A stretch of 35,541 bases of DNA from Patescibacteria group bacterium (GCA_028703545.1 JAQVMR010000001.1:1-35541), one strand, 5' to 3'; shown: positions 5,586-31,741, numbered from the stretch's first letter. Notes: generated by a model from the letters alone, not told the origin. Numbers and translations: made by a program.

Positions 5586-5614
5586 TTTACTTTAATTTGA
5601 AAAATTAGTATAAT
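5586..5614 (+). promoter_or_regulatory. Candidate sigma70-type promoter for the cassette (TTTACT, 17-nt spacer, TATAAT)
   Basis: Perfect TATAAT at 5609-5614, with TTTACT at 5586-5591 exactly 17 nt upstream. It lies 30 nt before the ATG at 5645, in the only sizeable intergenic gap (139 nt) upstream of the cassette. Such matches are frequent in A+T-rich DNA. Confidence 0.35.
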
Positions 5615-5644
5615 ATTGATATACAAACAAACCCTATTTCCATT

Positions 5645-6433
5645 ATGACTTCAAATAATGAAAAAGATTTTTCTTTGGGAAATTCTATTAATAAAAATAA
5701 ATTTTTTAATAGAGTTTTTAATTATTTTTCAAGAGAAGATGTTATAGTAAAATCCATATTTATAGTTGGGATTTTTTCTATTTTTTTTGGAATACTGGGA
5801 ATGTATATAAACATTAAAAATTCTTTGATAACACCTGAAGTTGCTATAGAAAACACAGCGGTTATAGTAGAAGGTTTAAATAGAATAAAAGATACTGATT
5901 TGGATGGATTACCAGACTATGAAGAATTAAATACATATAACACTAGTCCATATTTAGAAGACACAGATTTAGATGGAGTGTCTGACTATGATGAGATGAT
6001 TTTGGGAAGAGACGGAGAATGCAGTGGGGATAATTGTAAAATAATTACAGCACCGGAAGAAGAATTAGACGTCATGAGTTTATTAGGTGGATTAGATTTT
6101 CAGGATGTGGATTTTCAAACATTTAAGCAAACATTAATTGAATCAGGCTATGATGAAGCAACTTTTGATTCTCTAACAGAAGAAGATTTTAATCAAATGA
6201 AACAAATGCTTCCCTCGGAAGAATCAGGCGATGTAAATTTTTCAAATCAAACAGAATTAACAAAAGAGGAGCTTCAACAAATTGAACAAATGAGAAATAT
6301 ATCAATCCAGGATATTAAGAGTCTAATGATACAAGGCGGGGCAACAGAAGAAAAATTATCAGAATTTTCAGACGATGATTTAAAACAAATATATTTACAA
6401 ACACTTGATGAATTATCAAGTTCACAATATTAA
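5645..6433 (+). CDS. Single-pass membrane protein with two TSP3-type Ca-binding repeats and an acidic C-terminal region
   Basis: One N-terminal TM helix (SIFIVGIFSIFFGILGMYINI). Two D-x-D-x-D-G-x-x-D-x-x-E units (DTDLDGLPDYEE, DTDLDGVSDYDE). The remainder is rich in D/E/Q. Its TAA stop lies 4 nt before the giant gene's ATG. Confidence 0.7.
   Translation: MTSNNEKDFSLGNSINKNKFFNRVFNYFSREDVIVKSIFIVGIFSIFFGILGMYINIKNSLITPEVAIENTAVIVEGLNRIKDTDLDGLPDYEELNTYNTSPYLEDTDLDGVSDYDEMILGRDGECSGDNCKIITAPEEELDVMSLLGGLDFQDVDFQTFKQTLIESGYDEATFDSLTEEDFNQMKQMLPSEESGDVNFSNQTELTKEELQQIEQMRNISIQDIKSLMIQGGATEEKLSEFSDDDLKQIYLQTLDELSSSQY
5891..5995 (+). repeat. Two TSP3-type calcium-binding repeats (protein level)
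   Basis: DTDLDGLPDYEE and DTDLDGVSDYDE lie 23 residues apart. Both fit D-x-D-x-D-G-x-x-D-x-x-E. Confidence 0.75.
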
Positions 6434-6437
6434 AAAA

Positions 6438-9400
6438 ATGATAAATAAGAAATCAAAATTTATTTTAATTATTGTAACAACAATATTTGTTTTTAATACT
6501 ATCCTTGTTGTTCCAAGGAAAGTAGAAGCTCAAACCACAGACTACGCCCATATAGCAGTTACGCTTGGTAAGTGGGCATGGGAAAAGGTGGAGCGTGTGG
6601 CGACAAAGTTTTATGATTCATTGGTGACAGTAACATTTAAAAGGGTTATAGGGAATTTTTTAAATAATTTAGCATATGAGGCGGCCACCAGTTTAGCTTA
6701 TGGTGCCCCAGGAGAAAAAAAGAAGTTTTTTACAAAGGGTTTTGATGAATTTCTTGAAAATGAAGCTGATGCAGCCGTGGGAGAAGTTTTAATAGCATTC
6801 GGTGAAAGTTTGGAAATAAAGGGTTTTGATATTTGTAATCCAACGGATCCAAATTTTGCGATTGATTTAGTAACAGATCAGTTTAAAATTAGATCAGGCC
6901 AAAAAATTCAAGCAAGATGTAAATTAAGTGAAATGTCAAAGAAATGGGGAGAAATAGCGCAGAAATATATCGATAATCCTTTAGCATTATTTTCTTTAAA
7001 CGGGCAATCTCTTGCCGAATTGGGTTTTACAGAGGGTGGTAATAAAAACGAACAAATGGCAAAAGTTTTAGAAAATCTTTTAGATCCAAAACAGTCAGAT
7101 GCTGCCGTTGAAATATCGATCCGTGATCAAATACAACAAACAGAAAAAGCCTCTAATGAAAAATCAAAAGATACTATAGCGACCGCGAGAGAAACTGGGG
7201 GAGTATTGCCCAGTACAGACGCACCAACTGAAAGAAAACTCGAACCATCAAAGCAGGCAGAAGAAGACCTGAAAACAAATATCGGCGCTGATAAAAAACA
7301 AAGTCCATTACTAACCTATACAGGAAATCTAGTGGCTGATACAGCAGGAGTATTTATGGATACATATATGGCCGCCTCACTTAAGAATTTAATAATGGAG
7401 TTGTATAGAAAAGCACTAAATGAAAACGAGAGTTATAGCCCGGAACTTAATCAACTTATTGCTAAAAAACCATTTTCTTTCAAGGATTACATAGATCAAG
7501 TTTATTCTTCTGTAAAAAAAATATCTTTTAATATGAACGCAACAGATATTGAGTTAATAAGTGAAATGCAAATGACAATGAGAGATCCTAATTTAGGAAT
7601 TCCGGGTAATCTAAATGATTCTGTTATTGATTCTGATTTTGCAGAAGTTTTAAGAAGGGCTCAACTTCAAGATCCTATGACACTGAGGCAAGCCATAGAA
7701 GAGAATTTAATAAATGGAAATAAAATATTTGGATTTAAAGATTTAAATAATACTCAAATTCTTCAACAGCCAGATTTAAGTGAGGGAATTTCATATGATA
7801 ATATGAAAAAATTGAGAAAAAATAGAGTAATCCCAGTTGGTTGGGAATTGGCGGCTCTTAAGATAGCTCAATTAGCAAAAAATGGAACACTAATATGTCA
7901 ACCCGGTGGATGCACATTAAATGATGTAATGAGTCAGTATAATCAATATGGTAATTATAAATACGGAGAAGTGGTTAATGATGAAGTGCAGTGGAAAACA
8001 GCCCCGGATAACTTATGTGGTTGGAGATCTTATCCTCAACTTAATCTTACACAGGCACAATGCAACAAAGATTATTTAAGAGGAGCCCCACATTATTTAG
8101 ATGATATAGAAGTAAAATGGGTTGGAGATAGTGTTAGTAATGAAAGAACGGGTATCTGTTATAAGTATAGTTTTGATAACAACGGATTTCTATCTGAAAT
8201 AACAGAGGAATCTTCAATAGTAAGTGAAGATGATTGTGATATAGTAAATTCTAACTGGTATTATGAATGGATGGATGGTGGATGTCTTATAATAGAAAGT
8301 GGAGAAGCTCCACTTTGTGGACTTATTAATCCAGACTGGGTATTAAAAGCACCAGTACAAAAATGTTTTGCAAAAGGATATTACAGCGCACTTGAAATGA
8401 ATGAAAGTTCAAATAGGTATCAGGATTGTGCTGACACAAGACAGTGTCTTAAGGAAGATGATGGTGGAAGATGTATAGGGGGATATGGATATTGCTTGAA
8501 GGAGAAGAATATTTGGAAATTTAAAGGAGATGTGTGTGACAAAAACTATAATGGATGTGTAAGCATAACCGATGATGAAAATAAACAGCAAGCATATTTA
8601 ATTAATACATTAAGAGATTGTCCCCAAGAACAATCTGGATGTAGAAAATATTTATCTACAAAGATAAAATCAGACACTTCTTATGTTTGGGATTTAAATA
8701 TAGAAAATTTTTTCTTTAATAGAAATATTACATCTTGTAATAAGTTAAAAGAAGGTTGTAATAATTTTATTAATATAGAAAGGGGGGTTAATTTAATTCC
8801 AAATTCTAGTTTTGAAATAGACGAAGGTAGGGAAGATTTAATTCCAGATGGATGGAGTGTTACTGGTTTTAAATTATCTTCGGCTTCAGCTCTTTTAGGA
8901 AGGTATTCTCTAACTCTAGATAATGGATTGTCAGATAATACAAATATAACCGATTCATTAACAGAAGATTTAGGAGACGATAGTGGGATATCTAATGCAG
9001 ATACTGGCAAAATAAGTGGAAATGAAAGAGATGGTCGTGGAATAAATACAGGAAAAGAAGATCTAAGAAGTAATGGTGAAACATCTAATTCAGATAATGG
9101 CACAGTAAATGGAAATGAAATAGGTGGTGGTGGAATAAATACAGGTGATTTGTCTATGAATATTAAAATACCAGGAATGGGTAATTATGTTTTAAGTTAT
9201 CATGTAAAAAATATTAGCGGAAATAGTGTTGTAGTTCCTTATATAAATGATATGTCACTTGATGATGCAAAATTTGAAGAATCTGAAGCTACGGATTGGA
9301 TTAGAAAATACGCTACATATACAGTATTAGATAATTCTACCGAGGAGCTTTCATTATCAATTAACGGAAGAGGAAGTTTTTATTTAGACGATATTCAATT

Positions 9401-12400
9401 TGAATTTATAGATCAATCGATTTCTGAACCCATTGATTCATTGGGTCGAACATCTTCCAGTAGATCAAATTTAATTCCAAGTCCATACAATGAATACGGT
9501 AATACATCAAATGTTTTCTTTAAAAAAGCACCCGATTATTATAATTGTAAGAGCCTTAATCCAGCTCCTGAATGTGATAATTATTCTAAGTATTGTTCAA
9601 AAGAAGATAATGGTTGTGAACTATATAGACCCGTAAATGGGGATGCTTCGGTAAGTGCTATAGTTACGCAAAATGATGTTTGTCCATCTGAGTGTAATAA
9701 ATTTCAATCATATTCACAGCTACCAAATTATTTTGATAAGTTAGAGGCCCAAGATGCTAATGAAAATATTCCAGATCCTATTACAAGAAATTTTATAGCA
9801 GATACAGCACAAAATTGTCTTGAACCATCTTGTGAGGAGTTTACAAATATAGATAGCACTAGTCAGGGCGGAGAAGGAAGAGAATATTATAATTTTTTAA
9901 GGCAGTGCGTAACGCCCAATGATGTTAATAATGAAATAAGTATATATTATACATGGGAGGGATCTGATACAGCTGGATTTCAATTAAAAACATGGAAATT
10001 ATTAGAGAGCAACTTATCAGACGGTAATATAGCAGGAAGAAATGCTCCATGTACTAATATTGCAATAGGTGGTTTTGAGTGTTCTGATTTGTCGAGTGGG
10101 AGATCCTGTGATCCAGAAAATGATTTAGATTGTAGAAGTTTCTATGATATGAATTCAATATCATATAATAGAAAATTATCAAAAACAATTCCAATTACAG
10201 ATGAATGTATAAGATTAAGAAGAACATTAAGTAATGTCGTTTACAAGGTGGTTCCATCTATGAGTCAAAGGTGTTCAGAGTCAAATGTTGGATGTATTGA
10301 ATATAAAGGAAATAATGGAAATAATATAAGAAATGTTTTGATAGAAAATTTTGAATACGGCACATCAAACCCCTGGAATTTTTCTAATGGATTAAGCTTT
10401 CACCCATCTTCAGAATCATTACAGTATGGAGGTTCCTCATTGGCTGTTTATACGTTTGGGGGGGCGACACAATTTACACTATCATATAATTTAACAGAAA
10501 ATGGATTCAATATTATTCCAGGAAGAGAATATACTCTAAGTTTTTGGGTAAAGAAATTTAGTGACAATGATACATACGGAGAAGATAGTGATTTAATAGA
10601 AGATTCCGAACAACAGGCAATAAATTTTGAAAATTTAATTTTTAATAAAGCAAGGGCACAGGAAAATTCAAATTTGACATTTACGTCTTCTGTCGTTGAA
10701 AATCCAGAATGGGAACTCAGGCAATTAAATATTATTGTAGCACCAACTACTATAACAGAAGAAGATGAAGTTTTATTGATTATAAATATCCCAATAGTAA
10801 ATTCATCTGACTTGAGAGATGGAATATTTATAGACAATATAACACTGAAAGAATTTCAAAATAATTTTTATAAAATAAGAGATTCATGGAATACTCCACG
10901 TGTTTGCGTTGATAATGATAATAATGGAATTATTGATAATAAATATTTAGGTTGTCAGGAATATAAGGACAGGAAAAAATCATCAAATTATTTATATCAG
11001 TTTAGTAATATTTGTAATCCAGAAAATGTAGGATGTCGTGCTGTTATTGACACAAAGAATTCCAAGATGCCATTCAAACAAGTTTTTAATGCTTATTGTA
11101 ATAATACAGGAAGTGCAAGTAATCCAGAATGCACAAAGAATAAATATTATTATTTAAATAATAGAGAAGAGCCAATTTCAGGAAATGATTCAGATAGCAT
11201 GATAAAGGTTCCTGAAGATACAATAGAATATATTGTAGAGGACAATAAATTTCAATGTACTAATTCTGAAAAAGGATGTCAGAATTTAGCTATATTAGAC
11301 AATAGCGGAAATCCAAGCGATGTGTTTATGGTAAATAATCCAGATGATTATATATCAGATGACTATTTTGGTGCTCAAAACCAGACTCTATGTTTATCCA
11401 AGTATAATAATTGTGTGTCTATGGAAAAGTTGGATGGTAGTTATTTATTTAAAATTCATCCAAGGGAGAACTTGTGTGAATATAGAAAAGCAGAAATTGG
11501 TTTGGGATTACCAGCTGGTTTTTATAAGAAAGGAACGAATGAAGCATGTGATGGCCTATTATATAACAAGGGTTATGATGAATCTATGAATAATATAGAA
11601 AATACATTGAATGATCATTCTATATTCCCAGAGTTTACTAATTCTTACGCAGCAGTGTGTCCTCAGGCACAGGATTCTTGTACCGCATTTATAGACCCAC
11701 AGGATAATTTAAATCAGATACCACAAACTTTAAATTTTTATAACACAGAAAATAATAATACCCCCAATTGGAAATTATTTGATTTAAACATAAACGGAAC
11801 AATCGCACCTGTGCAAGGTAATGTTTCTGCCACATCTTCAGGAATTGAGTTTGCTGCCAATTCAGGAGAATTAGCAAGGAATAGTTACAATTTTTCTGTA
11901 GAACAAAAACAAATTTATAAATTAGCTGGATTTGTTAAATTTGATGCATCTTCAGAAAATAAAAATAGATTTATTTCAACACATTTAATTTGTAAAAAGA
12001 ATAAAAACTCAGATGAATATTATTACTCTGTTGCTGAAAATAAATTACCATACGCATTTCCAGATTTAAATTCAAATTATTTTGTAAAGGAAAACGCTGG
12101 TAATGTCGATAAATGGATTTATATATATGGACTCTATACAATAGAGCCAGGTGCAAATTTTTGTAATGTTGCATTCTATTACGGCGGAAATGATGGAAAT
12201 ATATCAATTATAAATATGTCATTTGAAAAATTACAAGGATATTATACATATATTGATAATCAAAATATTGATAGAACAACTTGTATAGAACCAAGCAAAG
12301 AAAAGGGGTGTGTTTTATTTCATCAAGTTACAGATCCAACCCTAAGATGGAGTTCAGATATAAGTTATGATAATTCTAGTTTAGTAATGGGAAATTTGTA

Positions 12401-15400: not shown

Positions 15401-15665
15401 ATTTAATTATTCATTTGTATATGTTTGCACCCCAGATAGCGACTATTGGATTGATAGTTGTGAAATAGCGGGTGATGAACCATGTTGTATATTTAATCCA
15501 GCAGTTATAATTACTGACTCTTGGGGAAATTCCTCTGAATCGGGAATGTCTGATGAAAAATCAATTATAATAACAACAAATCAAGGAATTTTGAATATTA
15601 GAAATCGACAACAAAACATAGAAGAAGACGAAGAAGACGAAGAAGACGATGTAACATTTAGATGA
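6438..15665 (+). CDS. Giant secreted Cys-rich multidomain protein (3,075 aa from the preferred start), function unknown
   Basis: Longest ORF in the window (track: 6405..15665). I prefer the ATG at 6438, 4 nt after the upstream TAA, because it gives a classical signal peptide MINKKSKFILIIVTTIFVFNTILVVPRKVEA/QTT. The first ~450 mature residues are Cys-poor. About 88 Cys (hand count) then lie mainly in spacers between three Cys-poor CBM4_9-like beta-sandwich modules. The tail is acidic (EEDEEDEEDD). There is no TM anchor or LPXTG motif. Confidence 0.85.
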   Translation: MINKKSKFILIIVTTIFVFNTILVVPRKVEAQTTDYAHIAVTLGKWAWEKVERVATKFYDSLVTVTFKRVIGNFLNNLAYEAATSLAYGAPGEKKKFFTKGFDEFLENEADAAVGEVLIAFGESLEIKGFDICNPTDPNFAIDLVTDQFKIRSGQKIQARCKLSEMSKKWGEIAQKYIDNPLALFSLNGQSLAELGFTEGGNKNEQMAKVLENLLDPKQSDAAVEISIRDQIQQTEKASNEKSKDTIATARETGGVLPSTDAPTERKLEPSKQAEEDLKTNIGADKKQSPLLTYTGNLVADTAGVFMDTYMAASLKNLIMELYRKALNENESYSPELNQLIAKKPFSFKDYIDQVYSSVKKISFNMNATDIELISEMQMTMRDPNLGIPGNLNDSVIDSDFAEVLRRAQLQDPMTLRQAIEENLINGNKIFGFKDLNNTQILQQPDLSEGISYDNMKKLRKNRVIPVGWELAALKIAQLAKNGTLICQPGGCTLNDVMSQYNQYGNYKYGEVVNDEVQWKTAPDNLCGWRSYPQLNLTQAQCNKDYLRGAPHYLDDIEVKWVGDSVSNERTGICYKYSFDNNGFLSEITEESSIVSEDDCDIVNSNWYYEWMDGGCLIIESGEAPLCGLINPDWVLKAPVQKCFAKGYYSALEMNESSNRYQDCADTRQCLKEDDGGRCIGGYGYCLKEKNIWKFKGDVCDKNYNGCVSITDDENKQQAYLINTLRDCPQEQSGCRKYLSTKIKSDTSYVWDLNIENFFFNRNITSCNKLKEGCNNFINIERGVNLIPNSSFEIDEGREDLIPDGWSVTGFKLSSASALLGRYSLTLDNGLSDNTNITDSLTEDLGDDSGISNADTGKISGNERDGRGINTGKEDLRSNGETSNSDNGTVNGNEIGGGGINTGDLSMNIKIPGMGNYVLSYHVKNISGNSVVVPYINDMSLDDAKFEESEATDWIRKYATYTVLDNSTEELSLSINGRGSFYLDDIQFEFIDQSISEPIDSLGRTSSSRSNLIPSPYNEYGNTSNVFFKKAPDYYNCKSLNPAPECDNYSKYCSKEDNGCELYRPVNGDASVSAIVTQNDVCPSECNKFQSYSQLPNYFDKLEAQDANENIPDPITRNFIADTAQNCLEPSCEEFTNIDSTSQGGEGREYYNFLRQCVTPNDVNNEISIYYTWEGSDTAGFQLKTWKLLESNLSDGNIAGRNAPCTNIAIGGFECSDLSSGRSCDPENDLDCRSFYDMNSISYNRKLSKTIPITDECIRLRRTLSNVVYKVVPSMSQRCSESNVGCIEYKGNNGNNIRNVLIENFEYGTSNPWNFSNGLSFHPSSESLQYGGSSLAVYTFGGATQFTLSYNLTENGFNIIPGREYTLSFWVKKFSDNDTYGEDSDLIEDSEQQAINFENLIFNKARAQENSNLTFTSSVVENPEWELRQLNIIVAPTTITEEDEVLLIINIPIVNSSDLRDGIFIDNITLKEFQNNFYKIRDSWNTPRVCVDNDNNGIIDNKYLGCQEYKDRKKSSNYLYQFSNICNPENVGCRAVIDTKNSKMPFKQVFNAYCNNTGSASNPECTKNKYYYLNNREEPISGNDSDSMIKVPEDTIEYIVEDNKFQCTNSEKGCQNLAILDNSGNPSDVFMVNNPDDYISDDYFGAQNQTLCLSKYNNCVSMEKLDGSYLFKIHPRENLCEYRKAEIGLGLPAGFYKKGTNEACDGLLYNKGYDESMNNIENTLNDHSIFPEFTNSYAAVCPQAQDSCTAFIDPQDNLNQIPQTLNFYNTENNNTPNWKLFDLNINGTIAPVQGNVSATSSGIEFAANSGELARNSYNFSVEQKQIYKLAGFVKFDASSENKNRFISTHLICKKNKNSDEYYYSVAENKLPYAFPDLNSNYFVKENAGNVDKWIYIYGLYTIEPGANFCNVAFYYGGNDGNISIINMSFEKLQGYYTYIDNQNIDRTTCIEPSKEKGCVLFHQVTDPTLRWSSDISYDNSSLVMGNLYSVADSNVLLKVTKDRTCGEWATCGSSIKTVDEKTGQEKNSCISLIGCDSLSADNSQCDNFILRDDSVKPLTFDDYQRQMGIDLSWSEMDYSGYSVPGLYPLDSLSIFPTNTTTKEYELGRSVIKRNVSGQNLVYKFGLGVDPVESYYNAYKYLDSQYKTCRLYPEKDSPFVWTPSIVLESTATTVGGVSYSIPTSLNQRFQNANICQPKFNTEDPPLIDWSLGLNNDCDCNYTKVTYGSSKNLYFPYGYSNIPANITEEYSATTISNKKSQTNFIGWRGFCLERDDSFLATPPNTISGNGDRYKTRCLSWYPVDSISGEIDLYSVAPESKISMPSDSKVCLVADDYVTEEDRVYCAFWSSNESESKAGLYGTQGSGHGYNAFDPQLSRCNVLAYVPAGTKLSQNSEEDFYNYFTNPDNYWTQDEFNDKFVTQTLTNNQDKSYDIIYGVNWPSWYENNVYYAGFHCNLYSEGGHYWREKELKFNPIEFMEVENPEGDLTLALERDFMEDFKNKLLPKFPINQPIDFYYYDEGVKPSGESYVGTDGHGVYEWDDLNSGYRANLFSTDDKRNVFIPLSKKGYGFDDDNTQACSSAQTVGDAYREACDAANTHFGDEFNPSLPYPKGHEVYTDCVSGGDSESMWNPLRHNYYVHYDGTNKHTYSQGWPIGPQSVDDYAGNMSSCPSGDCASSYDDFQSIKACRATGLISDSSDSGFDNVIFHSDNYYINYILKFGDVGTTTDSICTIQNNNICSSIEVGKSNLFSYDTLILRVKDVAQENTNFNVNNHIGTEFGLSSGVSSLRDPIHSNSDNFKNYYYTYSTDIKNSLTGARNNLSNSIVKIANIEHYQYAVNAWEEGNWVTSSYIWDLRENSENNAPIIKQVNKDGEGARGITVNNSNSADIYAVKSLKVNLSFYAYARWGRSPIKEIKLDWYGDDSDTLTLPGPFKNKRAECIRKCADKYSSISIQDWNNGDYCNSDSDCTGGQKCFSYGWGNDQNSCVEDEFNYSFVYVCTPDSDYWIDSCEIAGDEPCCIFNPAVIITDSWGNSSESGMSDEKSIIITTNQGILNIRNRQQNIEEDEEDEEDDVTFR
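9006..9146 (+). repeat. 93-nt-period direct repeat inside a G/N/D/S-rich insert of the giant gene
   Basis: ggaaatgaaagagatggtcgtggaataaatacagga (9018-9053) and ggaaatgaaataggtggtggtggaataaatacaggt (9111-9146) are offset by 93 nt. They encode GNERDGRGINTG and GNEIGGGGINTG. Confidence 0.8.
15621..15647 (+). repeat. Perfect (GAAGAAGAC)x3 microsatellite encoding EEDEEDEED, ending six codons before the giant gene's stop
   Basis: Read directly: gaagaagac gaagaagac gaagaagac, followed by gat gta aca ttt aga tga. Confidence 0.95.
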
Positions 15666-15702
15666 TATTTATTTAATGGATAATGCTCGGGTATAAATTT
15701 GT

Positions 15703-18700
15703 ATGATAAATAGAGATAATAAAATATATAAAACATTGAGAAGTATAATACAAAAATTTAAAAATTTTGAAAATTCTTTAACAAGAAAAAGAAAAATTTT
15801 TTACGCTATTTCTTTATTTTTTATTTGTATATTTTTTTGTTTCCCGGGGGCAACAGCGAGGGCGACATTAATGGATGCAATTCTTAATCTACTTACAAAT
15901 TTATTTTTGACTATACTTAGTTTTTTGGGTTGGATTGCTACTAAACTTATGATAGCTTTAGTTTTTTTTGCAACATGGGGTAAATACACAACAGGCATAC
16001 ATGCAGTTGTTGAAGGATGGAAAATTGCAAGAGATATATGTAATATGTTTTTTATATTTATACTTCTTATAATCTCATTTGCTACTATAATAGGCATAGA
16101 ATCATATTCATATAAAAAATGGCTAGGGAAGGTTGTAATATTTTCAATTCTAATAAATTTTTCTAAAATGATCACAGGTCTTTTAATAGATGTTTCTCAG
16201 ATAGTGATGTTAACATTTGTGAGTGGATTTAAAGATGCAACTGTGGGTAATTTTGCAAAGGGCCTTCATTTAGACCAGTTGATGAAAAAGGAAGCAGGCA
16301 CAAGTTCAGAAGAAAAGAATAGCAGCACAAGTGTTTTTGTAACAGTGGTGTTAGCTTGTATAATGTTGGTAGTTTTAAATGTCATATTGGTTATTATGAT
16401 AGTTATGCTTGTGGGAAGAATTTTGAGTTTTTGGATTTTGGCAATTTTATCTCCTTTTGCATTTTTACTTCAAGCATCTCCTGCGGGGGGTAAATATGCA
16501 AATGAGTGGTGGCAGTCTCTTTCAAAAAATCTTATTAGTGGTCCAATACTTGCAATGTTTATTTATTTGACAATGGCAACAATTCAAAATTCTGTTGATG
16601 CAGACCATAATAAAGTTGAGAATTTATCTGAAATTGGTGGAGTTTTAGACAAAGATGAAGAAAATATGGGTACTAGTGGGGCAACAGTTGGGCAGTATTC
16701 TTTAGAGAAGACCAGTATGATTTTAGATTTTATTATTGTTATTGCTATGATGATTGCAGCCATAAGGATAGCGGGATCGCTTGGAGTAATGGGTTCAAGT
16801 TTTGCTGGTAATATGTCAAATAAATTACAGAAAGCTGGTTCTTCAGCCCTTAAACTTGGTATGGCGGGGGTCGGTGCTGCTACAGGAGCAAATTATTTAG
16901 CGAAAAGATATAGGGCATATAAAGAAATTAGAAAAGATAGAAAAGATCAAAAAGCATATCAAGATGCACAGAAATTTATGGATAGAACTGGAAAAATGAA
17001 GCAGGGCGTTGGTAAATTTATGCAAAATCCACTAAAATCTTTGTCCAGTGACAGAAATAAAGTAGGAAGATTTTTTAAAGGAGCTGAACAAAAAAGACAG
17101 AATGTTGCAAAATGGGCTAGTGGTACTTGGGCTGGAAGACGTGCTCATGATTTAAATTTTGCCCAAAAGGCTAGAGAAAGAGCAGAAAAATCAGCAAATG
17201 CGGCTTCTCATCTTTCTTATGCTAGGAGCATGGGAGTTCGCAATACCCAAGATATAGATAATTTGGAAAATGGTTTAGATACTCGAAGAACCAACATAGA
17301 TAGAGATGAAGCACATTTTATAGAAGAATATAGAAATAGTCATCCAGGGGCCAATATAACAGATATAGATCAGATAGATAAGGGTACATTAAATGAGGAT
17401 CAAAGAGTGCAGCTTGATAATTTGAATAATAATAGAAAAAAAATAGAAACAGAACAGGGACACATAGATGGACTTAGAGATTTGGTTGGAGGTTTAGATG
17501 TGCAAGAGGCGGAATTTATAAATAATTATCGAAATAATAATCCTACTTCTACTGCAACAGATTTAAGTGAAATAGATAGAAGAACCCTGACTGATCAAGA
17601 AAGAAATAAACTTTATAGTTTAATGAATCAAAGAACAAGATATGATCAATCAGGAGAGAATAAAAATTTAGAAACTTTAGATGATTTATATAAAAGACAT
17701 AATATAAAGAATGAACAGAAGAATAGTTTAGATAGGCAAGAGGCGGAATTTATAAATAATTATAGAAATAATAATCCGGGCGTTAGAATAACATCTTTGG
17801 GTGACATAGATAGAACTACTTTGAATGATCAACAGAGAACTGAACTTGCTAAATTGGAAAAACAAAGAAATAAGTTGGGAGAAGTTGGACCGGCTATAAA
17901 TAATTATGAAGATGTTTTAGCAAATACAAGAATTTTAGATGAAACTATAAATCATTTTCAGGAAAAATCAGAGAAATCATCAAGAGCTGCTCAGGGTTGG
18001 ACAGAATTTGGAACTGGTGCCGCAGCTGTATTTAGAAGATCCCTTTTGGCAACATCATTTTTAGCTCCATTTGCTTCTGCTCTTGGGGGGTCATTTTTTG
18101 CTCCACTAGCTAATTTATATGGAATTCATACAGCAACAGGCGGTGTATATGGTGCATTGGCATCTTCTGGTGCAAGCTGGTCAATGGCTGCTGCAGCTGC
18201 ACCTGGCTTAACGAGTGATGCAGGTAAGGCACTTGAGCGAAGTGGTCAGGCAGATGTAAGGGATGCTGCAAATTATTTAAGTAATAAAGTTATGGATGCT
18301 GCAAAAAAATTTGAGGATATGGATACAGGAATGGTAGAACGCATGAGAGATGATATAAAAACTTCTAATGTGGATTATATGGCAGCTCAATTCCAATTAT
18401 TAAAAAGAGGTCTTGTGGGTGTAGATCAAATACCACAGCTTTTATCTGATTTACAAAATCGTGGTGCTGATAGAAATACACTGAGATCATTTGAAGGAGA
18501 AATAAGAAAACAATTCCCAACGGAAGGTAGATGGTTAGATGCACAAGGAAGGCCATTATTAGACGGAGACAGAGGAAGTAGACAGGCAGAACAGATGAGA
18601 CTCAATGGAGTGGGAAGAGTATTAGAGGGTATAAATGCAACGGGATATACACAAGAAATAATAAGAAATGCCATTAGAGAATCAAGAACGCCCGCTGAAC

Positions 18701-19224
18701 TTAGAGCGGATGCAAATCGTTTGTCAATAGAGCAACAAAGGGGTGTTGCTCAAGTTTCTCATAGAATTTTAATAGAGGATAGTGCTGGTATGAATACAGA
18801 GGATTTGAATAAACTAGCTCAATTTTTATCTACATCCCTGAGCTCTAATGTAAATAGAGAAGAGAGACAAACAATGTCTCGTGAGGCCTATAATGAATTA
18901 ATAGGAAGAGATGATATAGCACAGATAAATACAGCAGATTTATTGGTAAATATGGATTTAAATGATGCGGGGTTAGATCAGAGACAGCTTTTGGCAAATA
19001 TTAATCCAGTAGAAATTGGAAATATGGTTAGAACAGCAAATGATTTAGGTGGAGATAGAAAAACCATGGTTAATGATTGGTTGGGACAAATTAGGCCATT
19101 ATTAGATCAAATGCTTACCGGTAATCAACTAGAACAACAGAATGCTCAACGTATCATAGCAAGATTAGGCCAAATGCAGGGAGCGGCCGCTTTAAATACC
19201 ATGAATAATCTTGATTTATATTAG
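15703..19224 (+). CDS. Large polytopic membrane protein (1,173 aa), with a core possibly related to TrbL/VirB6-type channel proteins
   Basis: N-terminal signal/anchor, then at least 7 hydrophobic spans within residues ~30-365. A basic, coiled-coil-like region follows and contains three tandem repeats. A second Gly/Ala-rich hydrophobic patch is present (GAAAVFRRSLLATSFLAPFASALGGSFFAPLANLYG...AAAAAPGL). The ~340-aa tail is rich in Arg, Ala and Gln. The TrbL/VirB6 resemblance of the segment WKIARDICNMFFIFILLIISFATII...ILINFS is from memory and unverified. Confidence 0.75.
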   Translation: MINRDNKIYKTLRSIIQKFKNFENSLTRKRKIFYAISLFFICIFFCFPGATARATLMDAILNLLTNLFLTILSFLGWIATKLMIALVFFATWGKYTTGIHAVVEGWKIARDICNMFFIFILLIISFATIIGIESYSYKKWLGKVVIFSILINFSKMITGLLIDVSQIVMLTFVSGFKDATVGNFAKGLHLDQLMKKEAGTSSEEKNSSTSVFVTVVLACIMLVVLNVILVIMIVMLVGRILSFWILAILSPFAFLLQASPAGGKYANEWWQSLSKNLISGPILAMFIYLTMATIQNSVDADHNKVENLSEIGGVLDKDEENMGTSGATVGQYSLEKTSMILDFIIVIAMMIAAIRIAGSLGVMGSSFAGNMSNKLQKAGSSALKLGMAGVGAATGANYLAKRYRAYKEIRKDRKDQKAYQDAQKFMDRTGKMKQGVGKFMQNPLKSLSSDRNKVGRFFKGAEQKRQNVAKWASGTWAGRRAHDLNFAQKARERAEKSANAASHLSYARSMGVRNTQDIDNLENGLDTRRTNIDRDEAHFIEEYRNSHPGANITDIDQIDKGTLNEDQRVQLDNLNNNRKKIETEQGHIDGLRDLVGGLDVQEAEFINNYRNNNPTSTATDLSEIDRRTLTDQERNKLYSLMNQRTRYDQSGENKNLETLDDLYKRHNIKNEQKNSLDRQEAEFINNYRNNNPGVRITSLGDIDRTTLNDQQRTELAKLEKQRNKLGEVGPAINNYEDVLANTRILDETINHFQEKSEKSSRAAQGWTEFGTGAAAVFRRSLLATSFLAPFASALGGSFFAPLANLYGIHTATGGVYGALASSGASWSMAAAAAPGLTSDAGKALERSGQADVRDAANYLSNKVMDAAKKFEDMDTGMVERMRDDIKTSNVDYMAAQFQLLKRGLVGVDQIPQLLSDLQNRGADRNTLRSFEGEIRKQFPTEGRWLDAQGRPLLDGDRGSRQAEQMRLNGVGRVLEGINATGYTQEIIRNAIRESRTPAELRADANRLSIEQQRGVAQVSHRILIEDSAGMNTEDLNKLAQFLSTSLSSNVNREERQTMSREAYNELIGRDDIAQINTADLLVNMDLNDAGLDQRQLLANINPVEIGNMVRTANDLGGDRKTMVNDWLGQIRPLLDQMLTGNQLEQQNAQRIIARLGQMQGAAALNTMNNLDLY
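17302..17880 (+). repeat. Three tandem protein repeats (periods of 66 and 78 codons) in the 1,173-aa membrane protein
   Basis: The three units are RDEAHFIEEYRNSHPGANITDIDQIDKGTLNEDQRVQLDNL, VQEAEFINNYRNNNPTSTATDLSEIDRRTLTDQERNKLYSL and RQEAEFINNYRNNNPGVRITSLGDIDRTTLNDQQRTELAKL. Units 2 and 3 share a near-identical DNA block, caagaggcggaatttataaataattat, at 17503 and 17737 (234 nt apart). Confidence 0.9.
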
Positions 19225-19389
19225 AAATCAACAAAACAATCAACAAAATAATAATCAAGGCAATAATAGGCCATGACCACCAAGAAATCAACCAATTGAC
19301 GAAGGATTTGATTATAATAATCCAGATTATAATAATTTAAGAATTATTGATTAAAATCATTAAAAAAATTTATAAATGCGTATAATATA

Positions 19390-21210
19390 ATGCAAGAATT
19401 AAAACAAAATCAAAAAATTATAGAATCTATTTTAAGTAAGTTTAATTTAGGTTTAAATTTATATCATTTATTAGAGAGTATTCTGGATGGATATTTTTCT
19501 GATATTTTTGATTTTAATTTTACTATTGAAGATTTAATTAAAAATATAAAACTAGACAAACAAAAGGCGGTTGAACTTTTATTATACTCAGGTGCATTGC
19601 TTTCAGACACACTAGAAGATAAGAAATTAGAAGAATTAAATAAATTTGCAAAAGAAAATGGTTTTGATTTTGAAAAATTATTTGAGGATTCAATTAGCAG
19701 TCTTATTGATACAAGTATCGATGATTTTATAGATTATTCTTTATTAGACGATAATATTGACTCGACCTTAAAAATATTTCAGTACCATCTAATTTTAGCC
19801 ATACAAGAACAAAATAGTTTTGAATTATCAAGATTAGACACAATGATAATGACTCAATTAATGTTTGATCCAGATGTAAAAGACAAAATTCTAGAAGCAC
19901 TATCAAAAAACCAATATATTATTCAAGATAAAAAAATATCTGACTGGATAAAAGAGTTTGAAAGTATAATAAAAAAAGATTATAGGTCAAGCTTTATAGC
20001 AAAAAATAATTTTATCGATAATCAAAACTTAAATATAAAATATAAAAATTTATTGTCAAAGATTTTAGTTATGTATTTAAGGATAAAATTTTCTCCAAAA
20101 AGTTTTGATGATATTACAGAAACGGATTATTTTATAATTCCATATATTAAAGTTTTGTCAGGACAAATTGAAATTACAAACGAAAAAATTGTAAATATAT
20201 TAAAAGATAATTTATATAATTTGATAAATAGCGAAACAGGGATCGATCATGAAATTTTAAATGCTTTTATAGTTTCTGATATGGATAATGATGTTTTCAG
20301 AAGAGGAATTGAAGATGCATTATATAAAAATAGTGAACAAATAACAGACACAAAAATAAAATTAGAAGAAGCTGAAGTTATTGGCACAACAGCTAATTGG
20401 ATAAAAGATTATATAGAAAAAAATGGAATTGATAAATATGATGACATTGCATTTTCAACCTATATACTGGATTCAGAAAATACAAAAAATTTAAAAGAAG
20501 ATGAAAGAGAAATAGTAAAAAGATTATTGCAATTTTATTTGAATATGAAATTTTACTCACAGATTTTTGTTGGGATTGAGAGAGAAAAATGGACCATATA
20601 TCCTATAGAATTAAAGGAGGGAGTAAAAATAAAGAAGGTTTTTGTTCCAGAGTCGGTTGAAGAACGTATTCAAAAAATTCCAGAGAAAAAAGCTTCTAAC
20701 ATAGACACACTTTTAAATGCTTACAAAAATTTTGAATTAAGCTTTAAAAATTTAGAAACTCAAGTTACTAAAGACCTTAAATTAAAAAAAAGTACTGATT
20801 TAGATGAAGAATTTTTGAATTTTATAAATACAAATAAAGTAAAAGAAGCAATGGTTGTTTTGTCTTATGTGTGTAGTAATAATTTGATAAATATATTCTT
20901 TAAAGATAATAAAATTTTACAAAGAGATTTTAAGAAATTTTTAGAAAATAAATTTTCAGAAGATATGATAAATAATATTATAGGATTTTTTGGTACAGTT
21001 GAGTCAGTTAGTTTGTTCTTACAATTTTTATTAACAGAAAAATTGAGATTAATACCAAAAGATTCGGCGATTTTCGGAATGTATTTAGCTAACATATTTA
21101 AGAAATCAAAACAAGAAAAATATTTTCCCATTGTTTATGGTGATGTAAATTCTACTATGTTTATTTTTAGAGAAATAAAAGATGTTGCAGGAAAATTAGT
21201 AATAAAATAG
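19390..21210 (+). CDS. Hypothetical soluble protein (606 aa), last gene of the cassette
   Basis: Long uninterrupted ORF with no hydrophobic spans, no P-loop and no motif I recognise. The composition, rich in K/E/D/N/I/L, suggests a helical protein. A hairpin plus T-run follows the stop. Confidence 0.7.
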   Translation: MQELKQNQKIIESILSKFNLGLNLYHLLESILDGYFSDIFDFNFTIEDLIKNIKLDKQKAVELLLYSGALLSDTLEDKKLEELNKFAKENGFDFEKLFEDSISSLIDTSIDDFIDYSLLDDNIDSTLKIFQYHLILAIQEQNSFELSRLDTMIMTQLMFDPDVKDKILEALSKNQYIIQDKKISDWIKEFESIIKKDYRSSFIAKNNFIDNQNLNIKYKNLLSKILVMYLRIKFSPKSFDDITETDYFIIPYIKVLSGQIEITNEKIVNILKDNLYNLINSETGIDHEILNAFIVSDMDNDVFRRGIEDALYKNSEQITDTKIKLEEAEVIGTTANWIKDYIEKNGIDKYDDIAFSTYILDSENTKNLKEDEREIVKRLLQFYLNMKFYSQIFVGIEREKWTIYPIELKEGVKIKKVFVPESVEERIQKIPEKKASNIDTLLNAYKNFELSFKNLETQVTKDLKLKKSTDLDEEFLNFINTNKVKEAMVVLSYVCSNNLINIFFKDNKILQRDFKKFLENKFSEDMINNIIGFFGTVESVSLFLQFLLTEKLRLIPKDSAIFGMYLANIFKKSKQEKYFPIVYGDVNSTMFIFREIKDVAGKLVIK

Positions 21211-21252
21211 ATTATTGACATTTATATTACAATTATTTAATATCATATAGGG

Positions 21253-21282
21253 GTCGCCATTAATTATTAATCGCGACTTTTT
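21253..21282 (+). terminator. Candidate intrinsic terminator after the 606-aa gene
   Basis: The structure is GTCGC-c-ATTAAT-t-ATTAAT-c-GCGAC followed by TTTTT, 43 nt after the stop at 21210. The T-run abuts the ATG of the RAYT-like gene. The stem is short and mostly A/T, so support is weak. It could instead be a hairpin belonging to the HUH gene. Confidence 0.3.
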
Positions 21283-28845: not shown

Positions 28846-29106
28846 ATGAAAATTATTAGAATTGAAGCAGACTGGTGTCCAGAGTGTGTTATTTTTATGA
28901 AACCAGTTTGGGATGAAATTTCTCGGGAATTTCCTGATATTGTTATGGAGGTTTTAAATTATGATAAAGACGAAGAAATAAAAACAAAGTATAATATTTC
29001 CAAAGTTCCTACATTTGTATTTTTAAATGATTTTGAAGATGAGATTGTAAGAAGAAATGGAATTATCTCAAAGAAGGAAATTATTGAAATAATCAAGCAA
29101 ATTTAA
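28846..29106 (+). CDS. Small thioredoxin-fold protein (WCPEC active site)
   Basis: 86 aa with an N-terminal beta-strand followed by a CxxC motif (IEADWCPECV). The conserved cis-Pro context (KVPTFVF) of the thioredoxin fold is present. Confidence 0.7.
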   Translation: MKIIRIEADWCPECVIFMKPVWDEISREFPDIVMEVLNYDKDEEIKTKYNISKVPTFVFLNDFEDEIVRRNGIISKKEIIEIIKQI

Positions 29107-31684: not shown

Positions 31685-31741
31685 TTCTATTTGTATTTGA
31701 CTAAAATGTATTGATATGCTATTATTATACCATAAATAAAT

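What the first reader, a model, noticed from the sequence alone, without database searches (positions are those of the whole stretch)
5586..21282. Four-gene cassette around a 3,075-aa exoprotein: candidate uncharacterised cell-surface or host-contact system
Four same-strand genes fill about 44% of the window, with gaps of 4, 37 and 165 nt between them. A promoter-like element (TTTACT-17-TATAAT) sits in the 139-nt gap upstream. A hairpin plus T-run follows the last stop. In order, the products are as follows. (1) A single-pass membrane protein with two TSP3 Ca-binding repeats. (2) A signal-peptide-bearing giant Cys-rich protein with three CBM-like beta-sandwiches. (3) A 1,173-aa polytopic membrane protein. 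(4) A 606-aa soluble orphan. By eye, none has a P-loop (GxxxxGK[ST]), a protease, nuclease or glycosidase motif, an LPXTG signal or a C-terminal anchor. The flanks are pure housekeeping (rsmA upstream, ribosomal proteins downstream), so the cassette looks like a chromosomal core-adjacent accessory module. My inference is that this is an anchor, an extended adhesin-like fibre and a membrane platform or conduit used for cell-cell or host attachment. The pairing of a giant exoprotein with a possibly VirB6-like membrane protein, with no VirB4/VirD4 ATPase in the window, does not match any described secretion or adhesion system I know.
Basis: partly seen in the sequence, partly recalled or inferred. 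Interest (0 to 1): 0.85.

Follow-up and report, generated by a model that had tools for sequence, protein, structure and literature searches.

The report
Surface half of a Patescibacteria T4SS

Summary
Four co-directional genes lie at 5645-21210, with gaps of 4, 37 and 165 nt and a terminal hairpin.

The window is a Patescibacteria (CPR) MAG contig.
- Gene 3 has an N-terminal VirB6/TrbL-like domain. The five best Foldseek hits are all R388 TrwI/VirB6, and the Pfam TrbL match is sub-threshold. It also has an ~800-aa C-terminal extension, which makes it an "extended VirB6".
- In related genomes, g3-g4 is followed by x, VirB3 (PrgI), a TrsD-like gene and VirB4. This was seen in 36 of 56 loci with enough downstream DNA.
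- g4 follows g3 in 67 of 68 loci.
- The giant protein lies upstream of g3 in 43 of 54 loci.
- g1 precedes the giant protein in 69 of 70 loci.

The cassette is therefore the surface and membrane module of the known monoderm-type CPR T4SS. In this lineage it is separated from the ATPase genes.

Two things appear undescribed:
- the tight linkage to a Sec-exported, 88-Cys giant protein with CBM_4_9-like domains and its TSP3 membrane partner;
- the g4 and x accessory families.

The adhesin role is inferred and was not tested. Verdict: a new variant of a known kind, of moderate interest.

The parts
5586..5614 (+). Promoter-like TTTACT-17-TATAAT in the 139-nt gap upstream of g1
   Evidence: The match exists. 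Such matches are about as frequent as chance in this AT-rich DNA (111 found, 92.7 expected).
5645..6433 (+). g1: 262-aa single-pass membrane protein with two TSP3-type Ca-binding motifs (aa 83-91 and 106-114) and an acidic, internally repeated C-terminus. It is the obligate partner of g2.
   Evidence: Hydrophobic span 33-51. DxDxDGxxD occurs twice. Pfam TSP3_bac scores 19.1 bits, below cut-off. The g1-family HMM scores E 2.7e-56. g1 lies directly upstream of g2 in 18 of 20 loci and 69 of 70 loci.
6438..15665 (+). g2: 3,075-aa Sec-exported giant protein with 88 Cys. An alternative TTG start lies at 6405.
   Evidence: Homologues are Patescibacteria or unassigned 'bacterium' hypothetical proteins only. 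A g2 relative lies upstream of g3 in 43 of 54 loci.
6438..6530 (+). g2 signal peptide (aa 1-31), with cleavage predicted after VEA|Q
   Evidence: A31 and Q32 are conserved in at least 80% of 27 homologues. N-termini of the same K-rich, hydrophobic, AxA-Q type occur in most of the 30 full-length homologues.
6531..7997 (+). g2 conserved N-domain (aa 32-520). It has no relative among solved structures.
   Evidence: Conservation profile and alignment A4. The PDB profile search gave 0 hits. The AF2 model was poor, with pLDDT above 70 only for about aa 371-511. Foldseek found nothing.
8235..8789 (+). First disulfide-rich module of g2, with C-x6-GC motifs. Seven such motifs occur between aa 700 and 1614.
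   Evidence: Invariant Cys columns and motif scan.
8790..9407 (+). g2 CBM-like beta-sandwich 1 (aa 785-990). It is interrupted by a low-complexity insert that holds a 2 x 93-nt tandem repeat (8953-9138).
   Evidence: Boundary motifs NLIPNSSFE and FYLDDIQFEF. Profile A5 matches the CBMs of 4d0q (E 0.004) and 4mgq (E 0.038). Tandem repeat D2.
10335..10853 (+). g2 CBM_4_9-like beta-sandwich 2 (aa 1300-1472)
   Evidence: Pfam CBM_4_9 gives E 0.52 for the window protein, at aa 1314-1386 in TTG numbering. CBM_4_9 matches 9 of 18 family members, best E 6e-12. Boundaries.
11706..12233 (+). g2 putative beta-sandwich 3 (aa 1757-1932). This is the weakest of the three.
   Evidence: Assigned only from boundary motifs similar to those of the other two and from its lower conservation.
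13485..15665 (+). g2 variable C-terminal third (aa ~2350-3075)
   Evidence: Alignment occupancy is 0.4-0.7 and column identity about 0.2, against 0.5-0.6 in the core.
15703..16878 (+). g3 N-terminal polytopic VirB6/TrbL-like domain (aa 1-392)
   Evidence: The AF2 model has pLDDT 75.7. The five best Foldseek PDB hits are all R388 TrwI/VirB6, with probability 0.96-0.99. Chain identity was checked by length in PMC9259494. Pfam TrbL gives E 0.003 and 17.8 bits, below the 25.9 cut-off. There are 25 invariant residues across 19 homologues. The family has 23,537 representatives at E<=1e-3.
16879..19224 (+). g3 C-terminal hydrophilic extension (~780 aa). It holds a very basic stretch (aa ~400-500), three 66-78-aa repeats (DNA 17294-17777), a Gly/Ala-rich hydrophobic patch (aa ~765-835) and a C-terminal domain.
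   Evidence: Sequence and repeat analysis. It is conserved only in close relatives: most homologues match just the first ~30-35% of g3.
19390..21210 (+). g4: 606-aa soluble protein made of two tandem copies of the g4-family domain (aa 6-252 and 260-606). It is the constant partner of the VirB6-like gene.
   Evidence: The g4-family HMM scores E 7.7e-84 with two domains. g4 lies directly downstream of g3 in 67 of 68 loci. Its family shares an N-terminal ~80-aa module with family x, which precedes VirB3 in relatives (hhalign 96.8%, E 3e-10). It has no Pfam, NCBIfam or PDB relatives.
21233..21282 (+). Hairpin plus T-run after the g4 stop; a likely intrinsic terminator
   Evidence: Sequence. ViennaRNA fold of 21206-21290 gives -15.0 kcal/mol with the stem GGGGUCGC...GCGACU followed by UUUU.

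Best explanation

**Shown**
- g3 is an 'extended VirB6'. Its N-terminal polytopic domain resembles the VirB6 subunit that forms the pentameric base of the T4SS channel and stalk in R388. It is followed by a long hydrophilic extension.
- g4 always accompanies g3. Its family shares an N-terminal module with a second family (x). In relatives, x sits between g4 and VirB3 - TrsD-like - VirB4.
- g1 and g2 are an obligate pair, and both have features of exported or surface proteins. g1 is a single-pass membrane protein with TSP3 Ca-binding motifs. g2 is a signal-peptide-bearing, disulfide-rich giant with a conserved N-domain, CBM_4_9-like sandwiches and a variable C-terminal third.
- The g1-g2 pair is usually encoded immediately upstream of g3.

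**Inferred**
- g2 is exported by Sec and held at the cell surface through its conserved N-terminal part, by g1 and/or the VirB6 platform.
- g2 uses its CBM-like domains and variable distal part to bind glycans on the host cell surface. This would place the T4SS channel against the host. The role resembles that of the PrgA/PrgB/PrgC adhesins encoded upstream of prgH-prgI-prgJ in pCF10.
- The VirB3 and VirB4 genes of this organism lie elsewhere in the genome.
For: **g3 is VirB6-like**
- The five best Foldseek hits are all TrwI/VirB6, with probability 0.96-0.99. Chain identity was confirmed by chain length.
- Pfam TrbL gives E 0.003.
- A relative of g3 hits an NCBIfam conjugation transmembrane family (pLS20_p028) at E 3e-4.

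**Linkage to the T4SS core**
- VirB3/PrgI, a TrsD-like gene and VirB4 lie within about 8 kb downstream of g3-g4 in 36 of 56 loci.
- In locus L031, PrgI scores 33 bits against a cut-off of 27. VirB4 of the CD1110 family scores 368 bits against a cut-off of 325.
- Of 40 loci with both flanks, 17 have both g2 and VirB4, 15 have g2 only, 8 have VirB4 only and none has neither.

**Linkage within the cassette**
- g4 is next to g3 in 67 of 68 loci.
- g2 is upstream of g3 in 43 of 54 loci.
- In the g2-centred scan, g1 is directly upstream of g2 in 69 of 70 loci. g3 is within 6 kb downstream in 32 of 52 loci, which is a lower bound.
- The genes flanking the cassette differ between lineages, so the linkage is not just inherited genome-wide synteny.

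**g2 features**
- The signal peptide is conserved.
- CBM_4_9 matches 9 of 18 relatives, and the profile gives weak CBM hits in the PDB.

**Literature**
- The CPR T4SS is known and is essential for epibiotic growth in Southlakia (PMC10633639).
- VirB4 occurs in 2,417 of 3,035 CPR assemblies, and ksgA/rsmA is often near virB4 (PMC12102498). rsmA lies two genes upstream of g1 here.
- pCF10 has the same order, adhesins then VirB6, VirB3 and VirB4.
Against: - No VirB3, VirB4, VirD4 or pilin gene lies in the 35.5-kb window. Their presence elsewhere in this genome was not tested.
- The VirB6 assignment rests on modest scores: TM-score 0.33-0.46, Foldseek E 0.03-0.1, and a Pfam match below threshold. 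hhalign against a single PrgH sequence was not significant. A profile search of PDB sequences did not find TrwI.
- The g1-g2 pair is separable from g3. There was no g3 within the 2-5.5 kb of available downstream DNA in 18 of 52 g2-centred loci. Eleven of 54 g3 loci had no g2 upstream.
- No evidence bears on whether g2 binds sugars, is attached to the surface, or contacts g1 or g3. The AF2 model of the g2 N-domain was poor.
Confidence: 0.6

Rival explanations
1. There are two independent modules that are neighbours only by history. g1-g2 is a general cell-surface adhesin or envelope-structure pair, similar to the large Cys-rich extracellular proteins reported in other CPR. It has no mechanistic tie to the T4SS. 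g3-g4 is simply the VirB6 part of the T4SS.
For: - g1-g2 occurs without a nearby g3 in 18 of 52 g2-centred loci.
- The T4SS cluster occurs without g2 in 11 of 54 loci, with housekeeping genes upstream instead.
- Other genes, including convergent lipoprotein genes, are often inserted between g2 and g3.
- g2 has a Sec signal peptide and needs no T4SS for export.
- Large Cys-rich extracellular proteins have been proposed as attachment proteins in CPR without any link to a T4SS (PMC4736985).
Against: - Linkage of g2 to g3 persists in 62-80% of loci, across lineages whose g3 domains are only 34-45% identical and whose outer flanks differ.
- Gaps are only 7-76 nt in the window's clade.
- Every g3-g4 pair with both flanks sequenced has either g2 or VirB4 nearby.
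Confidence: 0.25
2. The cassette is an autonomous, ATPase-independent surface-fibre platform. In this lineage the VirB6-like protein has been co-opted as a membrane base that anchors or assembles the giant Sec-exported protein. In that role g2 would replace VirB5 or the pilus, and the four genes would work without VirB3 or VirB4.
For: - The window's clade (L001, L002, L009-L012, L016, L017) keeps g1-g2-g3-g4 tightly packed but has no VirB3 or VirB4 within 8-16 kb.
- g3 and g4 are enlarged in this clade. g3 is 1,173 aa with a clade-specific extension. g4 is duplicated to 606 aa.
- In R388, VirB6 is the pentameric base on which VirB5 sits (PMC9259494).
Against: - A split locus does not mean the ATPase is absent. 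VirB4 occurs in about 80% of CPR assemblies, and the rest of this genome was not examined.
- No similarity between the g2 N-domain and VirB5 was detected, although the model was too poor to judge.
Confidence: 0.1
3. g3 is not a VirB6 homologue. It is an unrelated helical membrane protein family that resembles VirB6 only superficially, and the cassette is a distinct Patescibacteria envelope system that often lies beside the T4SS.
For: - All direct similarity scores are sub-threshold or modest.
- Long helical membrane proteins can give spurious Foldseek matches.
Against: - The five best of 350,542 PDB chains are all VirB6, with a clear drop in probability from 0.96 to 0.21 at rank 6.
- Independent weak hits to TrbL and to a Gram-positive conjugation transmembrane family point the same way.
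- The gene sits where VirB6 (PrgH) sits in monoderm T4SS operons, upstream of VirB3 and VirB4.
Confidence: 0.05

Closest known systems
Chromosomal T4SS of Patescibacteria (Southlakia epibionticum SEML1_0006-0019; survey of 3,035 genomes by Quinonero-Coronel et al. 2025)
   Same: - It is a monoderm, MPF-FATA-related system with VirB3/PrgI, TrsD, VirB4 and VirB6, chromosomal and usually without a relaxase, and often near ksgA/rsmA (PMC12102498, PMC10633639).
- Relatives of this cassette carry exactly these genes downstream of g3-g4.
   Different: - The survey reports no adhesins and does not mention a giant protein.
- It detected VirB6 in only 480 cases.
- Here the VirB6-like gene is linked to g1-g2 and g4, and in this lineage it is separated from virB4.
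- No VirB2-like pilin array is present in the window.
pCF10 Prg/Pcf T4SS of Enterococcus faecalis with its PrgA/PrgB/PrgC surface proteins
   Same: The gene order is the same: surface adhesins first, then VirB6 (PrgH), VirB3 (PrgI) and VirB4 (PrgJ) on one strand. The adhesins mediate cell-cell contact for a monoderm T4SS.
   Different: - PrgB and PrgC are LPXTG-anchored. g2 has no LPXTG motif and no detectable homology to PrgB.
- g2 is three times larger, Cys-rich and carries CBM-like domains.
- pCF10 is a conjugative plasmid with a relaxase and a coupling protein.
Extended VirB6 proteins (Rickettsiales RvhB6 and Anaplasma VirB6 paralogues)
   Same: Both have a VirB6-like polytopic domain with five or more hydrophobic helices plus a large hydrophilic C-proximal domain of unknown role (PMC12857230; PMC7648143).
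   Different: The Rickettsiales proteins belong to diderm T4SSs and show no sequence relationship in the extension. The g3 extension is conserved only within a narrow clade.
R388 TrwI/VirB6 - TrwJ/VirB5 stalk
   Same: It is the best structural match for the g3 N-domain. VirB6 forms a pentameric base that carries an extracellular protein (VirB5) and contacts VirB3 and VirB4 (PMC9259494).
   Different: - The similarity is only modest (TM 0.33-0.46, 10-14% identity).
- R388 is a diderm system.
- No VirB5-like fold was detected in g2.
Large cysteine-rich extracellular proteins of CPR (Peribacteria, Anantharaman et al. 2016)
   Same: They are large (about 1,655 aa on average), carry signal peptides, are Cys-rich, lack annotation and are proposed to mediate attachment (PMC4736985).
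   Different: They come from a different lineage. No homology to g2 was tested here. They are not reported as linked to T4SS genes.

Membership tests
VirB6/TrbL family (T4SS inner-membrane platform), for g3 | Polytopic domain with at least 5 hydrophobic helices | tested here: met
   Eight or nine hydrophobic segments lie within aa 32-357. The AF2 model is all-helical with pLDDT 75.7.
VirB6/TrbL family (T4SS inner-membrane platform), for g3 | Match to Pfam TrbL (PF04610) at or above the gathering score | tested here: not met
   The score is 17.8 bits (E 0.003) against a cut-off of 25.9, aligned over profile positions 31-186 of 215. Only 2 of 28 family members match at E<=0.1. A few homologues carry a precomputed PF19590 hit; I did not check which family that accession is.
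VirB6/TrbL family (T4SS inner-membrane platform), for g3 | Fold similarity to a solved VirB6 | tested here: met
   Foldseek ranks 1-5 are R388 TrwI/VirB6 chains (8rt9_F, 7o3v_J/F/G, 8rtd_L), with probability 0.96-0.99, E 0.03-0.1 and TM (target) 0.33-0.46. The next hit has probability 0.21. The similarity is modest and no hit reaches E<=0.001.
VirB6/TrbL family (T4SS inner-membrane platform), for g3 | Encoded with VirB3 and VirB4 | tested here: inconclusive
   Not met in the window. Met in 36 of 56 related loci with at least 6 kb downstream. The rest of this genome could not be examined.
VirB6/TrbL family (T4SS inner-membrane platform), for g3 | Assembles as a pentamer that contacts VirB3 and VirB4 | not testable with these tools
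   This needs a multimer prediction or an experiment.
Patescibacteria-type (MPF-FATA-related) T4SS locus | VirB4 ATPase, the hallmark of every T4SS | tested here: not met
   No window ORF matches VirB4 and none of the four proteins has a Walker A motif. In relatives VirB4 is present, for example L031 with NCBIfam CD1110 at 368 bits against a cut-off of 325. The window therefore holds only part of such a locus.
Patescibacteria-type (MPF-FATA-related) T4SS locus | VirB3/PrgI and TrsD-like genes next to virB4 | tested here: not met
   Both are absent from the window. They are present in relatives: PrgI scores 33 bits against a cut-off of 27, and the TrsD-like protein hits NCBIfam TrsD at E 5.6e-8, below that model's cut-off.
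CBM_4_9 carbohydrate-binding modules, for the g2 beta-sandwiches | Pfam PF02018 match at or above the gathering score | tested here: not met
   The window protein scores 11.1 bits (E 0.52) against a cut-off of 25.9. At family level, 9 of 18 relatives match at E<=0.01, best 6.1e-12. Profile A5 hits the CBMs of 4d0q (E 0.004) and 4mgq (E 0.038). The domains are CBM-like, but membership of the window copies is not established.
CBM_4_9 carbohydrate-binding modules, for the g2 beta-sandwiches | Binds a carbohydrate ligand | not testable with these tools
   This needs glycan arrays or binding assays.
Gram-positive T4SS surface adhesins (PrgB/PrgC type), for g2 | C-terminal LPXTG sorting signal and sortase anchoring | tested here: not met
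   g2 has no LPXTG-like motif and no C-terminal hydrophobic anchor.
Bacterial TSP3 repeat proteins, for g1 | DxDxDGxxD Ca-binding repeats, or a Pfam PF18884 match | tested here: inconclusive
   Two exact motifs lie at aa 83 and 106. Pfam scores 19.1 bits, below the 25 cut-off. The same repeats in the window's YkuD protein score 28.2 bits.
VirB5 (stalk or pilus-tip protein), for the g2 N-domain | Helical-bundle VirB5 fold | tested here: inconclusive
   The AF2 model of aa 32-830 had pLDDT 52.9. Foldseek and the PDB profile search gave no hits. The model is too poor to exclude the fold.

The most novel reading that the evidence does not exclude
The VirB6-like protein serves as the membrane base for a giant Sec-exported, disulfide-rich, glycan-binding fibre (g2, tethered with g1). 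That fibre would replace the VirB5 tip, the pilus or LPXTG adhesins as the host-contact organ of the Patescibacteria T4SS. In the window's clade the four-gene module might even work without the VirB3 and VirB4 genes. This would be a new way of building the extracellular part of a type IV system.
Probability: 0.15. Interest if true: 0.8.

Novelty: new variant of a known kind. Interest (0 to 1): 0.5.

Why it matters
- The Patescibacteria T4SS is essential for epibiotic growth in the one species tested. How it reaches the host is unknown, and the published survey found no adhesins.
- A giant CBM-bearing exoprotein and its membrane partner are linked to the VirB6-like gene in most loci recovered from two scans: at least 505 g3-encoding stretches in species-representative genomes and 522 g2-encoding stretches in metagenome contigs. 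This pair is a concrete candidate for the host-contact element.
- The analysis also defines further conserved, unannotated gene families at or next to these T4SS loci: g1 and g4 from the window, and x and a ~200-aa membrane protein found in relatives.
- It shows that a very large VirB6-like family (23,537 cluster representatives at 50% identity) scores below the curated Pfam TrbL and NCBIfam cut-offs, so routine annotation with those libraries leaves it unnamed.

Tried and rejected
**Direct family and structure searches**
- Pfam and NCBIfam scans of the four proteins gave nothing above cut-off.
- phmmer of g2 and g4 against PDB sequences gave nothing.
- Profile searches of PDB sequences gave nothing for the g3 N-domain (A3), the g2 N-domain (A4), the g4 family (A6) or the x family (A7).
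- The first g3 profile (A1) was swamped by low-complexity hits from the K/E-rich tail. I rebuilt it truncated as A3.
- hhalign of the g3 family against a single pCF10 PrgH sequence was not significant (probability 1.2%).

**Searches that failed or were blocked**
- An exact-sequence lookup of g3 in the contig index found nothing.
- The homologue search with full-length g2 timed out. I repeated it with aa 990-2190. Proteins longer than about 2,100 aa did not come back from that index.
- R388 is not in the plasmid collection. I verified the identity of the Foldseek target chains from chain lengths given in PMC9259494 instead.

**Ideas tested**
- VirB5-like g2 N-domain: the AF2 model was poor (pLDDT 52.9) and Foldseek found nothing, so the idea is neither supported nor excluded.
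- Diversity-generating retroelement targeting g2: no template/variable-type repeats and no reverse transcriptase in the window. Rejected.
- The window's g4 as a g4-x fusion, as seen in L072, L079 and L082: the x-family HMM does not hit the window. g4 is an internal duplication instead.
- The promoter as evidence for an operon start: promoter-like matches are at chance frequency.

**Not possible with these tools**
- I could not check for VirB4 elsewhere in this genome or in large contigs of the same clade.

Full report
**1. Observation**

The window is AT-rich (21-39% GC). It is identical in length and content to a 35,541-bp contig of a 'Patescibacteria group bacterium' MAG: g3 is 100% identical to NCBI protein PHH83_00035.

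The four ORFs are as described:
- g1 is 5645-6433.
- g2 is 6438-15665 (3,075 aa from the ATG; the mechanical ORF starts at a TTG at 6405).
- g3 is 15703-19224.
- g4 is 19390-21210.
- The gaps are 4, 37 and 165 nt.

The TTTACT-17-TATAAT match at 5586-5614 exists. It carries no statistical weight in this DNA, where 111 promoter-like sites were found against 92.7 expected. The hairpin and T-run after g4 fold well.

- g1 has one span and two DxDxDGxxD motifs.
- g2 has an N-terminal signal sequence and 88 Cys.
- g3 is hydrophobic only in its first ~360 aa.
- g4 is soluble.
- None of the four has a Walker A, LPXTG or HExxH motif.

Two details need correcting. A 535-aa unassigned membrane protein lies between rsmA and g1. 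A weak IS200-like ORF follows g4.

**2. What g3 is**

Curated libraries give nothing above threshold for any of the four proteins. Several independent lines point to VirB6 for the g3 N-terminal domain.
- Only the first third of g3 is widely conserved. The first search found 142 homologues, which carry Patescibacteria names, generic 'bacterium' labels or no name, apart from two with other labels that are probably mislabelled.
- A profile of this domain finds 23,537 cluster representatives at E<=1e-3 among 1.84 billion proteins.
- The isolated domain gives a sub-threshold Pfam TrbL/VirB6 match (E 0.003, 17.8 bits against a 25.9 cut-off).
- An AlphaFold2 model of aa 1-399 (pLDDT 75.7) finds R388 TrwI/VirB6 chains as its five best matches among 350,542 PDB chains. 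Probabilities are 0.96-0.99 and TM-scores 0.33-0.46. Probability falls to 0.21 at rank 6.
- The R388 paper states that VirB6 was built for residues 1-272 and VirB5 for residues 32-229. The 260-272-residue target chains are therefore VirB6.

The remaining ~780 aa hold a strongly basic stretch, three 66-78-aa repeats, a Gly/Ala-rich hydrophobic patch and a C-terminal domain. This architecture fits what the T4SS nomenclature review calls 'extended VirB6'.

**3. Neighbourhood in relatives**

Six look-ups of homologue-bearing contigs were followed by a scan of species-representative genomes. That scan found at least 505 stretches encoding a relative of the g3 domain, and 80 loci were kept. I analysed these by BLAST and HMMs.
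- g4-family genes follow g3 directly in 67 of 68 loci with at least 1.5 kb downstream.
- A g2 relative lies upstream in 43 of 54 loci with at least 9 kb upstream.
- VirB3 (PrgI), a TrsD-like protein and VirB4 lie within about 8 kb downstream in 36 of 56 loci with at least 6 kb downstream.
- Of 40 loci with both flanks, 17 have both g2 and VirB4, 15 have g2 only, 8 have VirB4 only and none has neither.

A full cluster, for example in L031, reads g1 - g2 - a ~200-aa membrane protein - g3 - g4 - x - PrgI - TrsD-like - VirB4 - a ~200-aa protein. In L031, PrgI scores 33 bits against a Pfam cut-off of 27. VirB4 scores 368 bits against the 325-bit cut-off of the NCBIfam CD1110 family.

In the window's own clade (L001, L002, L009-L012, L016, L017), the x-VirB3-TrsD-VirB4 half is missing. 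The efp-rpsR-ssb-rpsF genes follow instead.

I also ran the converse scan, centred on g2, in JGI metagenome contigs. It found 522 relatives, and 80 loci were analysed.
- g1 lies directly upstream of g2 in 69 of 70 loci.
- g3 lies within 6 kb downstream in 32 of 52 loci. This is a lower bound, because only 2-5.5 kb of downstream DNA was available in the other loci. In at least one lineage g3 lies about 8 kb further on.

The genes outside the cassette differ between lineages. The conserved order therefore reflects selection on the cassette and not general synteny.

**4. The other three proteins**

*g2.* Homologues are Patescibacteria or unassigned 'bacterium' hypothetical proteins only. An alignment of 27 full-length relatives shows the following:
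- a conserved signal peptide with an A-x-A|Q site;
- a conserved N-domain (aa 32-520);
- repeated disulfide-rich modules, with seven C-x6-GC motifs and many invariant Cys;
- three beta-sandwich regions between those modules (aa 785-990, 1300-1472 and 1757-1932);
- a poorly conserved C-terminal third.

CBM_4_9 is only E 0.52 in the window protein. It matches 9 of 18 relatives, best E 6e-12. The family profile weakly hits CBM structures. The N-domain has no detectable relative among solved structures. Its AF2 model was too poor (pLDDT 52.9) for fold comparison.

*g1.* This is a family of single-pass TSP3-motif membrane proteins.

*g4.* This protein has no relatives in Pfam, NCBIfam or PDB sequences.
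- The window copy holds two tandem copies of the family domain.
- The g4 family shares an N-terminal ~80-residue module with family x, which precedes VirB3 (hhalign 96.8%, E 3e-10).
- g4 and x appear to be fused in three loci, where both queries hit the same ORF.

**5. Mechanism**

*Shown.* g3 is VirB6-like. In relatives it sits where VirB6 sits in monoderm T4SS operons. g4 is its constant partner. g1-g2 are an obligate pair, bear a signal peptide (g2) or a single membrane span (g1), and are usually encoded just upstream.

*Inferred.*
- g2 is Sec-exported. Its conserved N-terminal part is retained at the surface by g1 and/or the VirB6 platform. Its CBM-like domains and variable distal third bind host-surface glycans, bringing the T4SS channel into contact with the host.
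- The basic g3 extension, g4 and x probably form a cytoplasmic accessory assembly.
- VirB3 and VirB4 of this organism are probably encoded elsewhere. VirB4 is present in 2,417 of 3,035 Patescibacteria assemblies.

The gene order parallels pCF10, where prgA, prgB and prgC (surface adhesins) precede prgH (VirB6), prgI (VirB3) and prgJ (VirB4).

*Rivals.*
- g1-g2 is an independent adhesin pair that merely neighbours the T4SS (confidence 0.25).
- The four genes form an autonomous, ATPase-independent fibre platform in this clade (0.10).
- g3 only mimics VirB6 (0.05).

**6. Comparison with the literature, and novelty**

The Patescibacteria T4SS is already described as MPF-FATA-related, chromosomal, usually without a relaxase, often near ksgA/rsmA, and essential in Southlakia. 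rsmA lies two genes upstream of g1 in this window.

The survey detected VirB6 in only 480 cases. It states that no adhesins such as PrgB were found, and it does not mention giant neighbours. Large Cys-rich extracellular proteins have been noted in another CPR lineage, but without a T4SS link. Three further full-text searches found no description of this linkage.

The system itself is therefore known. What appears new is its conserved coupling to the g1-g2 giant-protein module, the g4 and x families, and the split arrangement in this clade. I rate it a new variant of a known kind, with interest 0.5.

The evidence does not support that belief.

Noticed in passing
window 21283-21804 (+): A 173-aa ORF lies immediately after the cassette terminator. 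It has a weak Pfam Y1_Tnp (IS200-like transposase) match (E 0.005, below cut-off). It is absent from the same position in the close relative L001. In L002 that position holds Fic and AbiEii genes. The site between g4 and efp therefore looks like an insertion hot spot.
   Followed up: partly
window 28846-29106 and 29109-30308 (+): A thioredoxin (Pfam 45.5 bits) is followed by a 399-aa polytopic membrane protein with an N-terminal thioredoxin-like CSHC motif. The pair is conserved in L001. It could be extracytoplasmic disulfide machinery, which would be relevant to an 88-Cys exoprotein 13 kb away. No link was tested.
   Followed up: no
window 30485-31765 (-): A YkuD-type L,D-transpeptidase carries TSP3 repeats that match the g1-family HMM (E 5e-17). 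The same Ca-binding repeat is therefore used in at least two envelope proteins of this organism.
   Followed up: partly
L003:9370-9966, L031:9351-9971 and about 55 other loci: A conserved ~200-aa protein with a hydrophobic SFGLTLLWIDxHVFL...FCKLG motif is encoded between g2 and g3 in most Falkowbacteria-like clusters. It has no Pfam match. It is absent from the window and its clade.
   Followed up: partly
L003:8643-9095 (-), L005:7163-9456 (-), L098, L109, L110, L124, L133, L164 downstream of g2: A small, convergently oriented gene with a lipoprotein-like N-terminus often lies directly after the giant gene. In L005 there are two, and both have a Por_Secre_tail domain. None is present in the window.
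   Followed up: no
L072:13157-15616, L079:13072-14997, L082:5397-8339: The g4 and x queries both hit a single ORF in these three loci, which suggests a gene fusion. L079 also has an unusually long VirB4 ORF (1,310 aa).
   Followed up: partly
record titles of L012-L014, L016, L018, L019 and many others: Many species-representative MAG records that carry this Patescibacteria-type cassette are titled 'uncultured Gammaproteobacteria bacterium'. These titles are probably wrong.
   Followed up: no
window 3898-5505 (+): A 535-aa, highly hydrophobic polytopic membrane protein overlaps the end of rsmA by 22 nt. It has no Pfam match and lies directly upstream of the cassette. Whether it belongs with the cassette was not examined.
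   Followed up: no
window 8953-9138 (+): A tandem 93-nt (31-aa) Gly/Asn/Ser/Asp-rich repeat (76% identity between copies) lies inside the first CBM-like region of g2. Most homologues lack this insert (alignment occupancy 0.19).
   Followed up: partly
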